Shown here: positions 9,001 through 12,000 of the stretch, piece after piece
Position numbering within the stretch: the first letter of the stretch is position 1
How the letters are laid out: every line of letters begins with the position of its first letter
Assembly: GCF_013122565.1 (NCBI RefSeq)
Contig: NZ_CP053258.1
Length of the DNA stretch: 64,000 nt
Strand: one strand, 5' to 3'
Source of the DNA: Escherichia coli
GTDB taxonomy: Bacteria > Pseudomonadota > Gammaproteobacteria > Enterobacterales > Enterobacteriaceae
Program-made: the position numbers

Positions 9001-12000
9001 AATATAACCCTCTGTAAATTACAGGGCATGGTGAGCGGCTTCGCTATGCCCAAAATCTGGAGAAAGCTCGCTATGGATATTCCCGTTAATGCAGCAAAGC
9101 CGGGGCGTCGGCGTTATCTGACGCTGGTGATGATCTTTATTACGGTGGTCATTTGTTATGTTGACCGCGCTAACCTGGCCGTGGCTTCCGCCCATATTCA
9201 GGAAGAGTTCGGTATTACGAAAGCGGAAATGGGCTATGTATTTTCGGCCTTCGCCTGGCTTTATACGCTATGTCAGATCCCCGGCGGTTGGTTTTTAGAT
9301 CGCGTAGGTTCACGCGTGACTTATTTTATTGCGATATTTGGCTGGTCAGTGGCGACTTTATTCCAGGGCTTTGCCACGGGATTAATGTCATTAATTGGTC
9401 TGCGCGCGATAACCGGTATTTTCGAAGCGCCCGCTTTCCCGACCAATAACCGGATGGTGACCAGCTGGTTCCCGGAACATGAACGCGCTTCCGCCGTTGG
9501 TTTTTATACGTCTGGTCAGTTTGTCGGTCTGGCGTTTTTGACTCCGCTGCTGATCTGGATTCAGGAAATGTTGAGCTGGCACTGGGTGTTCATTGTCACC
9601 GGTGGTATCGGCATTATCTGGTCGCTGATTTGGTTTAAGGTTTATCAGCCGCCGCGCCTGACCAAAGGCATCAGCAAAGCTGAACTGGATTACATTCGTG
9701 ATGGCGGCGGTCTGGTGGATGGTGATGCGCCGGTGAAAAAAGAGGCACGTCAGCCGTTAACAGCCAAAGACTGGAAACTGGTGTTCCATCGTAAACTGAT
9801 CGGCGTCTATCTTGGGCAATTTGCGGTGGCTTCTACACTGTGGTTTTTCTTAACCTGGTTCCCGAACTATTTAACCCAGGAAAAAGGAATCACGGCGCTG
9901 AAAGCAGGCTTTATGACCACGGTGCCATTCCTCGCGGCGTTTGTCGGCGTCCTGCTCTCTGGCTGGGTCGCGGATCTGCTGGTACGTAAGGGCTTTTCAC
10001 TGGGCTTTGCGCGTAAAACGCCGATTATCTGCGGCTTGCTGATCTCCACCTGCATTATGGGCGCTAACTACACCAATGACCCGATGATGATTATGTGCCT
10101 GATGGCGCTGGCATTCTTCGGCAACGGTTTTGCTTCGATTACCTGGTCGCTGGTCTCTTCTCTGGCACCGATGCGCCTGATTGGTTTAACCGGCGGCGTG
10201 TTTAACTTCGCCGGTGGTCTGGGCGGCATCACCGTTCCGCTGGTGGTGGGGTACCTGGCGCAGGGTTACGGTTTCGCACCTGCACTGGTTTATATCTCCG
10301 CCGTCGCGTTGATTGGCGCGCTCTCTTACATCCTGCTGGTGGGTGATGTGAAGCGCGTTGGATAATCTTTCAACTGTGGAATATGCGCCACACCACTGCG
10401 CATAATCCACTTTCTTAAAGCCGGTGCGGTCAGGCATCGGCTTTTTACTATCTTGCCGAAGAGTTTTAAATGCAGTTTGCTCATTGCCACGTCGAAATGT
10501 TCCATCCTGGTGTTCTGAAAAAGTAATACGACGTCAATCAAACGAATCCCCAGCTTCTGCATCATATGCCATTAAAAACAATGCGCTGCATTCTCTCGAA
10601 TCACACCCCCAGGCGATGCTTTCATGCTTTTTGTTGAACCAGACGGCCGTCGCGGCGGCGTTGATGCTGAAATTCCACTTTTTACCGTCGCTTTTAAGTA
10701 CCCCCTCAACCGTGCAGGGTAAAGAGTAGTAACCATCGCCGGGTAAATAGGCGCCCGGATATTTCGCGCTATTTTCGAAGATGAATTTAATGTCTTCTTT
10801 CGTGAGCTGTTGCTGCCACTCTTTGCACTCATTGGCGGGCAATGTAACGTTCTCTGTACTGGCGGGCCTCACGACTTTAAGAATTTCGATTTTTTCCAGC
10901 GGTGCGGTGGCGACAGTTACACTCCATCCTTTTTGGTCCGGGGCCGTCGATTTTGCGCAACTGACCTTGACCGCATCGTTCTCCCCCTTGCTGTTCTTCA
11001 CCCACGTTGAAACGAGAGGAACCGCGCAGCGTGAACTCACGGCATCGTAGGGGACTTCCAGGCCACGGCGTTTAACCGGTGTTTTTTCGGCCTGTTCGTG
11101 GAGAAATCGTTTGGATTCGCTGTTAACGTCGTACCACGCCTGCAATGGATGTGTGCCATGACCCCAGGCAGAACTCACCATAAGCGTAAGCAATAAACAT
11201 TGAGACTTCATCTGTCTATTTCCCTATAGATATGTGAATTTTAAGAATACTATCTCATGCTGATATCCGAGAGAAAGTGTGCTGTACTAGCCAACTCCGA
11301 TGGGCTTGTCAGGACCGCGCCATGAAACAGATAACCTTTGCTCCCCGTAATCACCTGCTCACCAATACCAACACCTGGACGCCCGACAGCCAGTGGCTGG
11401 TGTTTGATGTCCGCCCCTCCGGCGCGTCGTTTACCGGCGAAACTATTGAGCGTGTGAATATCCATACCGGTGAGGTCGAGGTTATCTATCGCGCGTCACA
11501 GGGCGCACACGTCGGCGTGGTGACCGTTCATCCGAAGTCAGATAAATATGTCTTTATTCACGGCCCTGAAAATCCTGATGAAACATGGCATTACGATTTC
11601 CATCATCGACGCGGAGTCATTGCTGAAGGCGGCAAGGTGAGCAATCTCGATGCAATGGATATTACCGCGCCGTACACCCCAGGAGCGCTGCGCGGCGGCA
11701 GCCATGTGCATGTCTTTAGCCCGAACGGTGAAAGGGTGAGCTTTACCTATAACGACCATGTAATGCATGAACTCGATCCGGCGCTGGATTTGCGAAACGT
11801 CGGTGTTGCTGCGCCGTTTGGCCCGGTCAACGTACAAAAGCAGCATCCGCGTGAATACAGCGGTAGCCACTGGTGCGTGCTGGTGAGCAAAACCACGCCC
11901 ACGCCGCAGCCGGGCAGCGATGAAATCAATCGTGCTTATGAAGAAGGATGGGTAGGAAATCACGCGCTGGCGTTTATTGGCGACACACTTTCGCCAAAGG

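What the first reader, a model, noticed from the sequence alone, without database searches (positions are those of the whole stretch)
10366..11321. Different gene in the cbrA slot: a 225-aa predicted secreted protein between dgoT and yidR
From memory, K-12 carries cbrA (about 354 aa, FAD-binding) between dgoT and yidR. Here that slot holds an opposite-strand 225-aa ORF with a clear signal peptide (MKSQCLLLTLMVSSAWG), several cysteines and no recognisable domain. This marks a strain-variable position in an otherwise syntenic backbone.
Basis: partly seen in the sequence, partly recalled or inferred. Interest (0 to 1): 0.55.

Follow-up and report, generated by a model that had tools for sequence, protein, structure and literature searches.

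The report
Orphan immunity-like secreted protein beside deleted cbrA
In a rare, divergent E. coli lineage the colicin-M resistance gene cbrA has been gutted, and just upstream of its remnant sits a real, conserved gene for an exported two-domain protein whose second half resembles the antidote proteins that protect bacteria from cell-wall-cutting toxins injected by rivals; this is interesting but not extraordinary.

Summary
Window 10534-11211 (-) is a 225-aa ORF with a signal-peptide-like N-terminus and six invariant mature cysteines, between dgoT and yidR.

The reading "a different gene replaces cbrA" is only partly right. cbrA is still there as a remnant: 115 bp of its 3' end and its first 24 bp, an in-frame deletion of about codons 8-315. 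ORF225 lies in about 800 bp of extra DNA where typical E. coli has an 87-bp cbrA-yidR spacer with a CreBC tag.

None of 5,426 complete E. coli genomes carries this DNA. One other E. coli draft has the same ORF and the same deletion junction. A Pseudocitrobacter-like contig has an orthologue between yidR and an intact cbrA.

The gene is under purifying selection (dN/dS 0.10-0.14). It matches nothing in Pfam, NCBIfam or the PDB.

Profile searches show it fuses two unrelated secreted-domain families. For the C-terminal family, four of the five closest stand-alone relatives sampled lie directly downstream of homologous signal-peptide-less Amidase_2 (PGRP-type) genes; T6SS genes (Hcp, VgrG, PAAR, TssM) were seen beside three of those four pairs, in Budvicia, Salmonella and a short metagenome contig.

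Best explanation: an orphan periplasmic immunity-like protein against a T6SS peptidoglycan amidase (confidence about 0.5). The N-terminal domain's role is unknown.

The parts
9028..10365 (+). dgoT (galactonate MFS transporter), the left backbone flank.
   Evidence: 445-aa ORF. Window 9001-10480, which holds it, is 98.1% identical to E. coli L001. Same coordinates as dgoT in RM7190.
10366..10480 (-). cbrA 3' remnant, the last ~115 bp of the gene. The stop codon has mutated TAA to TAT.
   Evidence: Matches the annotated cbrA 3' end in 5,384 of 5,426 E. coli genomes at 95-99%.
10483..10506 (-). cbrA 5' remnant, the first 24 bp including the ATG (MEHFDVA...). It is joined in frame to the 3' remnant, and about 923 bp (codons ~8-315, including the GxGxxG FAD motif) are deleted.
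   Evidence: blastn matches L001 4039-4062. Translation shows [18 protein letters not shown].... The junction is identical in the second E. coli carrier, L002.
10507..10533 (-). 27-bp spacer between the ORF225 stop and the cbrA ATG. It lacks the CreBC tag (TTCAC-N6-TTCAC) that precedes cbrA in typical E. coli, and the near-tag found in the Pseudocitrobacter-like locus.
   Evidence: Direct sequence comparison.
10534..11211 (-). ORF225, a 225-aa predicted exported two-domain protein (stop codon 10534-10536).
   Evidence: ORF. Homologues. dN/dS 0.10-0.14. AF2 model with pLDDT 85.3. The exact protein is NCBI WP_171460111.1, 'hypothetical protein'.
11161..11211 (-). Signal-peptide-like leader (aa 1-17, MKSQCLLLTLMVSSAWG, with A-W-G before the likely cleavage site). 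There is no lipobox.
   Evidence: Hydrophobic core, Kyte-Doolittle 9-residue maximum 2.48 at residue 5. Equivalent leaders occur in all homologues. SignalP was not available.
10882..11160 (-). N-terminal domain (aa ~18-110, with invariant C62 and C85). It belongs to a family of 115-140-aa secreted proteins in Rhizobium, Variovorax, Collimonas and Janthinobacterium. It has no Pfam family.
10537..10881 (-). C-terminal domain (aa ~111-225, with C129, C166, C203, C208 and the motif FSINAAATAVW). It belongs to a family of 125-155-aa secreted or lipoproteins. Four of the five closest members sampled follow T6SS-associated Amidase_2 genes.
11212..11321 (.). Divergent yidR/ORF225 intergenic region. 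A Shine-Dalgarno-like AGGGAA lies at 11220-11225 on the minus strand. Only the last ~13 bp (11309-11321) match typical E. coli; the rest is homologous to the Pseudocitrobacter-like locus.
   Evidence: No sigma-70 consensus was found by the simple scan.
11322..12536 (+). yidR (DUF3748 protein), the right backbone flank.

Best explanation
ORF225 is a real, selected gene for a Sec-exported, disulfide-bonded periplasmic protein made of two fused, unrelated domains.

Its C-terminal domain is a homologue of the small periplasmic proteins encoded immediately downstream of signal-peptide-less Amidase_2 (PGRP/AmpD-type N-acetylmuramoyl-L-alanine amidase) genes, most of them seen next to type VI secretion genes, in Enterobacterales. 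These are the presumed cognate immunity proteins.

No such effector gene lies next to ORF225. It would therefore act as an orphan immunity protein: it sits in the periplasm and binds and blocks an incoming amidase toxin fired by competitors such as Salmonella, sparing the peptidoglycan. The N-terminal domain is a second periplasmic binding module of unknown target.

What is shown:
- the gene, its conservation and purifying selection;
- the two-domain architecture;
- the genomic linkage of C-domain homologues to amidase genes, most of them next to T6SS genes;
- the deletion of cbrA.

What is inferred:
- export to the periplasm;
- the immunity function of the family;
- that a 33-37% identical orphan copy still neutralises an effector.

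Separately, the lineage has lost CbrA. It should therefore lack inducible, CbrA-mediated colicin M resistance.
For: Real gene:
- Orthologues occur in a second E. coli (96% aa), a Pseudocitrobacter-like organism (62-68%) and Leminorella (about 50%).
- dN/dS is 0.14 and 0.10.
- The SD-like site is conserved.

Export:
- All homologues have hydrophobic N-terminal leaders.
- Six Cys are invariant.

Architecture:
- A profile search of 1.84 billion representatives gave 304 relatives.
- Among the 150 best hits listed, all but the close clade match only positions ~1-110 or only ~110-227.
- The two halves are not homologous to each other.

Linkage of the C-domain family (closest stand-alone members):
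- P0006 (Budvicia): directly after an Amidase_2 gene inside a T6SS cluster with TssL, Hcp, VgrG, TssM and PAAR.
- P0007 (Salmonella): after an Amidase_2 gene, flanked by PAAR, Tae4-like and VgrG genes.
- P0010 (Salmonella): after an Amidase_2 gene.
- P0011: after a truncated ORF that is 48-59% identical to those amidases, and before a PAAR gene.
- P0013: directly after a PAAR gene.

The three complete amidases are 44-63% identical to one another and begin without a signal peptide.

Other support:
- The family motif F-x-INAAATA-x-W is intact in ORF225.
- Orphan copies occur elsewhere in arrays of small secreted proteins (L008, L024).
- Orphan copies also occur next to amidase fragments in Escherichia drafts.
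Against: - No experiment or curated family links this domain to immunity. It has no Pfam, NCBIfam or PDB match.
- The linkage census is small: 7 contexts, of which 4 have an amidase.
- ORF225 is only 33-37% identical to the effector-linked members, so specificity may have changed.
- No T6SS or amidase gene is in the 64-kb window.
- The four sampled effector-immunity pairs are absent from complete E. coli genomes.
- N-domain relatives mostly sit in unrelated housekeeping contexts. Only one lies beside a PAAR module.
- No promoter consensus was found upstream.
Confidence: 0.5

Rival explanations
1. ORF225 is a generic periplasmic binding or inhibitor protein that is not tied to T6SS immunity. 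Examples would be a regulator or inhibitor of the cell's own peptidoglycan hydrolases, or a host-lysozyme or amidase inhibitor in the style of Ivy, MliC or PliG.
For: - It has a leader and conserved disulfide cysteines.
- N-domain relatives are single conserved genes in non-T6SS contexts in Collimonas and Rhizobium.
- Many C-domain relatives are annotated only as lipoproteins in Lysobacter, Stenotrophomonas and Chitinophaga.
- ORF225 has been kept under purifying selection at a chromosomal core locus with no effector nearby.
Against: - The closest stand-alone C-domain relatives are specifically downstream of homologous leaderless amidases, most of them next to T6SS genes.
- There is no sequence or fold similarity to known lysozyme or amidase inhibitor structures.
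Confidence: 0.27
2. ORF225 is a functional partner of CbrA in the colicin M or lipid II defence pathway, for example a periplasmic component co-regulated with cbrA.
For: - In the Pseudocitrobacter-like loci the orthologue lies immediately upstream of an intact cbrA, in the same orientation, 74 bp away.
- Both would concern periplasmic attack on the cell wall. CbrA's function is described in PMC8469651.
Against: - ORF225 is retained under purifying selection in two E. coli lineages where cbrA is deleted.
- The Leminorella orthologue is not next to cbrA.
- A cre-tag-like site lies between the two genes in Pseudocitrobacter, which suggests that cbrA has its own control.
- None of the single-domain relatives examined neighbours a cbrA-like gene.
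- 5,384 of 5,426 E. coli genomes keep at least the cbrA 3' end (annotated cbrA in the rows listed) without ORF225.
Confidence: 0.08
3. ORF225 is a decaying relic or mis-called ORF with no present function.
For: - NCBI annotates it only as a hypothetical protein.
- No promoter consensus was found.
- The neighbouring cbrA is a pseudogene.
- A truncated 157-aa version exists in P. cyperus.
Against: - The frame is intact in all full-length copies.
- dN/dS is 0.10-0.14, while dS (0.137) matches that of flanking yidR (0.107) between two E. coli lineages about 2% apart.
- Cys and Trp residues are invariant across 50%-identity homologues.
- The fold is confidently predicted.
Confidence: 0.05

Closest known systems
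Periplasmic immunity proteins of T6SS peptidoglycan amidase effectors (Tai1/Tsi1, Tai2-4, Rap1a/Rap2a); described from established knowledge.
   Same: They are small exported proteins or lipoproteins, often disulfide-bonded, encoded directly downstream of a leaderless amidase effector in T6SS, VgrG or PAAR islands. They act by binding the effector in the periplasm. The C-domain family shows the same genetic layout.
   Different: - No sequence or structural similarity to any of them was detected (Pfam; PDB).
- The linked effectors are Amidase_2 (PGRP/AmpD zinc amidase) proteins, not the papain-like Tae1-4 or the Ldt-like Tae5/Tlde1.
- ORF225 is an orphan copy and carries an extra N-terminal domain.
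Orphan immunity genes, i.e. immunity genes kept without their effector; the term is in use in the T6SS papers listed, e.g. PMC7702109 and PMC9796082.
   Same: ORF225 is an immunity-family homologue with no adjacent effector. Related orphan copies lie in arrays of small secreted proteins or beside effector fragments.
   Different: ORF225 sits alone at a core-genome locus (yidR-cbrA), not in a T6SS auxiliary cluster or an immunity array. It is a two-family fusion. Protection has not been tested.
CbrA (YidS), the FAD-dependent reductase that saturates the alpha-isoprene unit of undecaprenyl-phosphate lipids and confers colicin M resistance (PMC8469651).
   Same: It occupies the same dgoT-yidR slot and the same strand. 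Thematically it is also a defence against a periplasm-acting cell-wall toxin.
   Different: It is unrelated in sequence. CbrA is a cytoplasmic flavoprotein of 354 aa, whereas ORF225 is an exported 225-aa protein without cofactor motifs. In this window cbrA is reduced to 139 bp of remnants.
FlgA N-terminal domain (Pfam ChapFlgA_N, PF17656).
   Different: The scores are below significance. ORF225 itself has no hit. There is no SAF domain and no flagellar context.

Membership tests
Cognate or orphan immunity protein of a T6SS Amidase_2 (PGRP-type) effector | Homology to proteins encoded immediately downstream of the effector gene. | tested here: met
   The C-domain matches P0006, P0007, P0010 and P0011 at E 1e-30 to 4e-25. 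Each of these lies just after an Amidase_2 gene or a homologue of one.
Cognate or orphan immunity protein of a T6SS Amidase_2 (PGRP-type) effector | An effector gene and T6SS genes adjacent in this genome. | tested here: not met
   tblastn found no amidase homologue in the 64-kb window. The neighbours are dgoT, the cbrA remnant and yidR. At best the gene is therefore an orphan copy.
Cognate or orphan immunity protein of a T6SS Amidase_2 (PGRP-type) effector | Localisation to the compartment where the effector acts (the periplasm). | tested here: inconclusive
   A leader with a hydrophobic core and an A-x-G site is conserved in all homologues, and paired cysteines are invariant. Only heuristics were available; no SignalP run or experiment.
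Cognate or orphan immunity protein of a T6SS Amidase_2 (PGRP-type) effector | Direct binding and neutralisation of the effector. | not testable with these tools
   This needs competition assays, toxicity-rescue assays, or complex prediction.
Described amidase-immunity families (Tai1-4, Tsi1, Rap, Tldi) | Sequence or fold similarity to those families. | tested here: not met
   - No Pfam family at E<=10.
- No PDB sequence hit at E<=0.1 with either domain profile.
- Foldseek PDB: nothing at E<=1e-3.
CbrA / geranylgeranyl-reductase-like flavoproteins | An FAD-binding Rossmann motif and similarity to CbrA. | tested here: not met
   ORF225 has no Pfam or NCBIfam hit. The true cbrA is present only as a 24-bp 5' remnant and a 115-bp 3' remnant.
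FlgA N-terminal domain (ChapFlgA_N), for the N-terminal domain | A significant profile or fold match. | tested here: inconclusive

The most novel reading that the evidence does not exclude
ORF225 is a bifunctional 'double antidote'. Two unrelated periplasmic immunity modules are fused into one exported protein, protecting against two different injected or imported cell-wall toxins.

In this reading the yidR-cbrA locus is an ancestral enterobacterial cell-wall-defence islet. Lineages keep either the lipid II-modifying CbrA (most E. coli), the protein antidote (this lineage), or both (Pseudocitrobacter). It would also define two new immunity families that are absent from Pfam and the PDB.
Probability: 0.15. 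Interest if true: 0.55.

Novelty: new member of a known kind. Interest (0 to 1): 0.35.

Why it matters
If the inference holds, it does three things.

1. It names a widespread, uncatalogued family. There are 304 relatives at E<=1e-3 across Enterobacterales, Xanthomonadales, Bacteroidota and others. This family would be the immunity partner of PGRP-type amidase effectors delivered by T6SS.

2. It shows a commensal E. coli lineage keeping a stand-alone antidote at a core locus for a long time. That is the kind of passive defence that shapes who survives contact-dependent killing in the gut.

3. It flags that this lineage has lost CbrA, so it should lack CreBC-inducible colicin M resistance.

In practical terms, it replaces a 'hypothetical protein' annotation (WP_171460111.1) with a testable function.

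It does not open a long-standing question. A specialist would find it plausible rather than surprising.

Tried and rejected
- **Curated libraries:** Pfam, NCBIfam, PHROGs and PADLOC scans of ORF225 gave nothing. The NCBIfam MftR2 hit at E 0.042 is noise.
- **PDB by sequence:** profile searches with each domain gave nothing credible.
- **First AF2 model:** the run from 6 sequences was unusable, with pLDDT 48.8.
- **Joint alignment:** a plain MAFFT alignment of both single-domain families with the full-length protein (A4) misaligned the N-family onto the C-domain, so it was discarded.
- **Replacement alignment:** I used arbitrary N+C chimeric rows (A5). This gives per-domain folds, but the inter-domain geometry should not be trusted.
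- **Internal duplication (N homologous to C):** rejected, hhalign probability 0.1.
- **Mobile-element origin:** no flanking direct or inverted repeats beyond chance. GC is 0.49-0.51, like the backbone. The only plasmid hit is a mislabelled Salmonella chromosomal fragment.
- **Promoter scan:** no sigma-70 consensus, and there is no cre tag upstream of ORF225.
- **Search for the cognate effector:** none in the window. The four sampled amidase-immunity pairs have no match in complete E. coli genomes.
- **Literature:** searches found Amidase_2 T6SS effectors only as catalogue entries, and no description of this immunity family. Tae5/Tlde1 is a different enzyme class.
- **Ancestral gene or import:** I could not decide whether ORF225 is ancestral at this locus and was lost by most E. 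coli, or was imported by homologous recombination.
  - For long residence: the intergenic DNA on both sides is homologous to the Pseudocitrobacter-like locus, and dS is at least that of yidR.
  - For a patchy accessory gene: among 100,044 species representatives, a full-length relative was found only in Leminorella.
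Full report
**1. What is in the sequence**

The interval 10366-11321 is exactly the gap between the dgoT stop codon (10363-10365) and the yidR start codon (11322). On the minus strand it holds a 225-aa ORF, 10534-11211, beginning MKSQCLLLTLMVSSAWG.

The protein has seven cysteines. One lies in the leader. Six (C62, C85, C129, C166, C203, C208) are invariant in every full-length homologue.

**2. What happened to cbrA**

In typical E. coli the slot holds cbrA (1065 nt, minus strand), whose stop overlaps the dgoT stop. An 87-100-bp spacer separates it from yidR.

In the window three things differ:
- Bases 10366-10480 are the last 115 bp of cbrA, matching the cbrA 3' end in 5,384 of 5,426 complete genomes at 95-99%.
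- Bases 10483-10506 are the first 24 bp of cbrA, including its ATG.
- The two pieces join in frame ([20 protein letters not shown]...). About codons 8-315 are removed, including the FAD-binding GxGxxG motif, and the stop codon has also decayed from TAA to TAT.

So cbrA was not replaced. It is a deletion pseudogene.

ORF225 lies in about 800 bp of DNA (10507-11308) that takes the place of the short cbrA-yidR spacer. That spacer in typical E. coli carries the CreBC tag TTCACAAGGACTTCAC. The window has only 27 bp between the ORF225 stop and the cbrA ATG, with no tag.

**3. Distribution**

The backbone is E. coli. It is, however, a divergent lineage:
- The best identity to any of 5,426 complete genomes is 98.2% over 10.5 kb on the left and 98.6% on the right.
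- It is 95.4% over a 12-kb stretch further on.

The ORF225 DNA is in none of those genomes, by megablast or by blastn.

Among 5.8 billion proteins only five clusters are related over their full length:
- The exact protein is NCBI WP_171460111.1/QJU26291.1, 'hypothetical protein [E. coli]', on a 4.82-Mb contig.
- A second E. coli draft (GCA_018578885.1, locus L002) has a 96%-identical copy in the same slot, with the identical cbrA deletion junction.
- That genome is nonetheless only 98.0% identical to the window over 12.7 kb, so the arrangement predates the split of two well-separated lineages.
- Metagenome contigs from a Pseudocitrobacter-like organism carry a 68% orthologue between yidR and an intact 353-aa cbrA. 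It has the same orientation as cbrA, lies 74 bp upstream, and a cre-tag-like TTCACATTCACTTCAT sits in between.
- The intergenic DNA on the yidR side, and the Shine-Dalgarno-like AGGGAA/AAGGAA, are conserved between the window and that contig.
- A scan of 100,044 species-representative genomes found a full-length relative only in Leminorella grimontii (50%). There it is not near cbrA.

**4. Is it a real gene?**

Yes.
- dN/dS is 0.14 between the two E. coli copies and 0.10 against the Pseudocitrobacter-like copy.
- Its synonymous divergence between the two E. coli lineages (0.137) is like that of flanking yidR (0.107).
- GC content matches the backbone.
- There are no flanking repeats or mobile-element signatures.

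**5. What the protein is**

Curated libraries are silent: Pfam, NCBIfam, PHROGs, PADLOC, and PDB by sequence.

A profile of the six full-length sequences, searched against 1.84 billion representative proteins, gave 304 relatives at E<=1e-3. Among the 150 best hits listed, apart from the close clade each relative matches either profile positions ~1-110 or ~110-227, sometimes as tandem repeats of one type. ORF225 is therefore a fusion of two domain families. These are not homologous to each other and neither is in Pfam.

The N-domain family consists of 115-140-aa secreted proteins, mostly from Rhizobium, Variovorax, Collimonas and Janthinobacterium. One weak lead points to the FlgA N-terminal domain.

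A deep alignment built from arbitrary N+C chimeras raised the AlphaFold model from pLDDT 48.8 to 85.3. With that model:
- In AFDB50 the C-domain matches more than 100 uncharacterised proteins and lipoproteins. They come from E. coli, Salmonella, Budvicia, Xenorhabdus, Lysobacter, Stenotrophomonas, Xanthomonas and Chitinophaga.

**6. The functional lead**

I looked up genomic contexts for the closest stand-alone C-domain proteins.

| Protein | Organism | Context |
|---|---|---|
| P0006 | Budvicia diplopodorum | Overlaps the end of an Amidase_2 gene inside a T6SS cluster (TssL, OmpA-like, Hcp, VgrG, TssM, PAAR) |
| P0007 | Salmonella enterica | Follows an Amidase_2 gene in an island with PAAR, Tae4-like, LprI and VgrG genes |
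| P0010 | Salmonella | Follows an Amidase_2 gene |
| P0011 | short metagenome contig | Follows a contig-truncated ORF 48-59% identical to those amidases; precedes a PAAR gene |
| P0013 | short metagenome contig | Directly follows a PAAR gene |
| P0015 (more distant) | short metagenome contig | Follows an HExxH toxin-like ORF and a lipoprotein |

Further observations:
- The three complete amidases are 44-63% identical to each other and begin without a signal peptide. NCBI names two of them (the Budvicia and one Salmonella protein) 'peptidoglycan recognition protein family protein' and two (Budvicia and the other Salmonella protein) 'N-acetylmuramoyl-L-alanine amidase'.
- The C-domain proteins all have leaders or lipoboxes.
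- In Escherichia drafts, a >=90% relative of the Salmonella protein sits beside 60-89-aa amidase fragments.
- In Pseudocitrobacter vendiensis and S. Abortusequi, family members lie in arrays of small secreted hypothetical proteins.

A leaderless effector followed by an exported small protein, next to VgrG, PAAR and Hcp genes, is the standard signature of a T6SS effector-immunity pair (established knowledge). ORF225 keeps the family's most conserved motif, FSINAAATAVW.

**7. Best explanation and its limits**

The most likely reading is that ORF225 is an orphan, periplasmic immunity-like protein. Its C-terminal module neutralises a PGRP-type peptidoglycan amidase delivered by competitors' T6SS. 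The N-terminal module is a second periplasmic binding domain with an unknown partner.

What is shown: the gene, selection on it, its architecture, and the linkage of its homologues.

What is inferred: export, the immunity function of the family, and activity of a copy only 33-37% identical to the effector-linked members.

Points against:
- The context sample is small.
- There is no effector or T6SS gene in the window.
- The sampled effector-immunity pairs are absent from complete E. coli genomes.
- N-domain relatives mostly sit in housekeeping contexts. One lies beside a PAAR module.
- No promoter consensus was found.

I put about 0.5 on the specific immunity model. I put about 0.27 on a broader 'periplasmic inhibitor or binder, not T6SS immunity' model, about 0.08 on a CbrA-partner role, and about 0.05 on a functionless relic.

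The CbrA-partner idea is weakened in three ways. ORF225 persists under selection where cbrA is deleted. It has a non-cbrA context in Leminorella. A separate cre-tag-like site precedes cbrA in Pseudocitrobacter.

**8. Comparison with what is known**

It works like the periplasmic immunity proteins of T6SS amidase effectors (Tai/Tsi/Rap) and like orphan immunity genes. It is not a member of any described immunity family; those membership tests failed.

It is unrelated to CbrA. CbrA's known role is saturation of the alpha-isoprene unit of undecaprenyl-phosphate-linked precursors, which confers colicin M resistance (PMC8469651). The in-frame loss of codons ~8-315, including the FAD motif, makes it very unlikely that this function survives in this lineage.

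**9. Origin**

This is unresolved.
- For long residence at the locus: the flanking intergenic DNA is homologous to the Pseudocitrobacter-like locus, dS is at least that of yidR, and two diverged E. coli lineages share the deletion junction.
- For a patchy accessory gene: full-length relatives are very rare among species representatives. Spread by homologous recombination through the conserved yidR and cbrA flanks would fit this.

**10. Verdict**

- The feature is a lineage-specific, selected gene for a fused two-domain exported protein, with a credible but untested orphan-immunity role, next to a deleted cbrA.
- It is a new member of a known kind, and of moderate interest (0.35).

Noticed in passing
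window 44818-63180: An 18-kb segment is absent from E. coli RM7190. It holds:
- a 3,613-aa inverse-autotransporter adhesin (45022-55863 +; annotated iatC/air/eaeX in matching genomes);
- an EilA/HilA-family regulator (55915-57612 -);
- SipD-like (57815-59164 -) and SipB-like (60351-62132 -) T3SS tip or translocator genes.

This looks like the known ETT2-associated eilA/air/eip island. The part of it covered by window 40000-52000 is at best 95.4% identical to any complete E. coli genome.
   Followed up: partly
window 30306-33673: A 3.4-kb insertion lies between ilvN and uhpA. It has two ORFs (30555-31862, 435 aa; 32077-33573, 498 aa) with no NCBIfam match. Both are annotated 'hypothetical protein'. 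The segment is present in 1,109 of 5,426 complete E. coli genomes, nearly full-length in 444.
   Followed up: partly
window 10326-10565 (-): The cbrA remnant forms part of a 79-aa mechanical ORF. The synonymous dgoT change GGT to GGA destroyed the overlapping cbrA stop codon (TAA to TAT). This small change shows that the overlap is no longer constrained.
   Followed up: yes
whole window (checked at 1-10480, 11200-13200 and 40000-52000): No complete RefSeq E. coli genome is closer than 98.2-98.6% (95.4% in the adhesin region). The source is therefore a deep-branching or poorly sampled Escherichia lineage. Its own complete chromosome (4.82 Mb, encoding QJU26291.1) is not in the RefSeq set that was searched.
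   Followed up: partly
L009 5331-6450; L010 5256-6468; L014 351-1710: This is an apparently uncharacterised T6SS effector-immunity pair family in Budvicia and Salmonella. A leaderless 242-269-aa PGRP/Amidase_2 protein is followed by a 141-155-aa exported protein that has no Pfam family. Escherichia drafts keep the immunity gene beside 60-89-aa amidase fragments.
   Followed up: partly
L023 3112-5405 (Paraherbaspirillum soli): The gene order is a 177-aa PAAR protein, a 298-aa protein with a C-terminal glycine-zipper-like stretch, a 119-aa protein, and then an N-domain family member (P0156). This is the only T6SS-linked context seen for the N-terminal domain family.
   Followed up: no
window 19213-19701 and 42702-43541: Two further short segments have no megablast match to E. 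coli RM7190. One is in the yidP/PTS region, which is pseudogenised in RM7190. The other lies between yicN and nepI.
   Followed up: no
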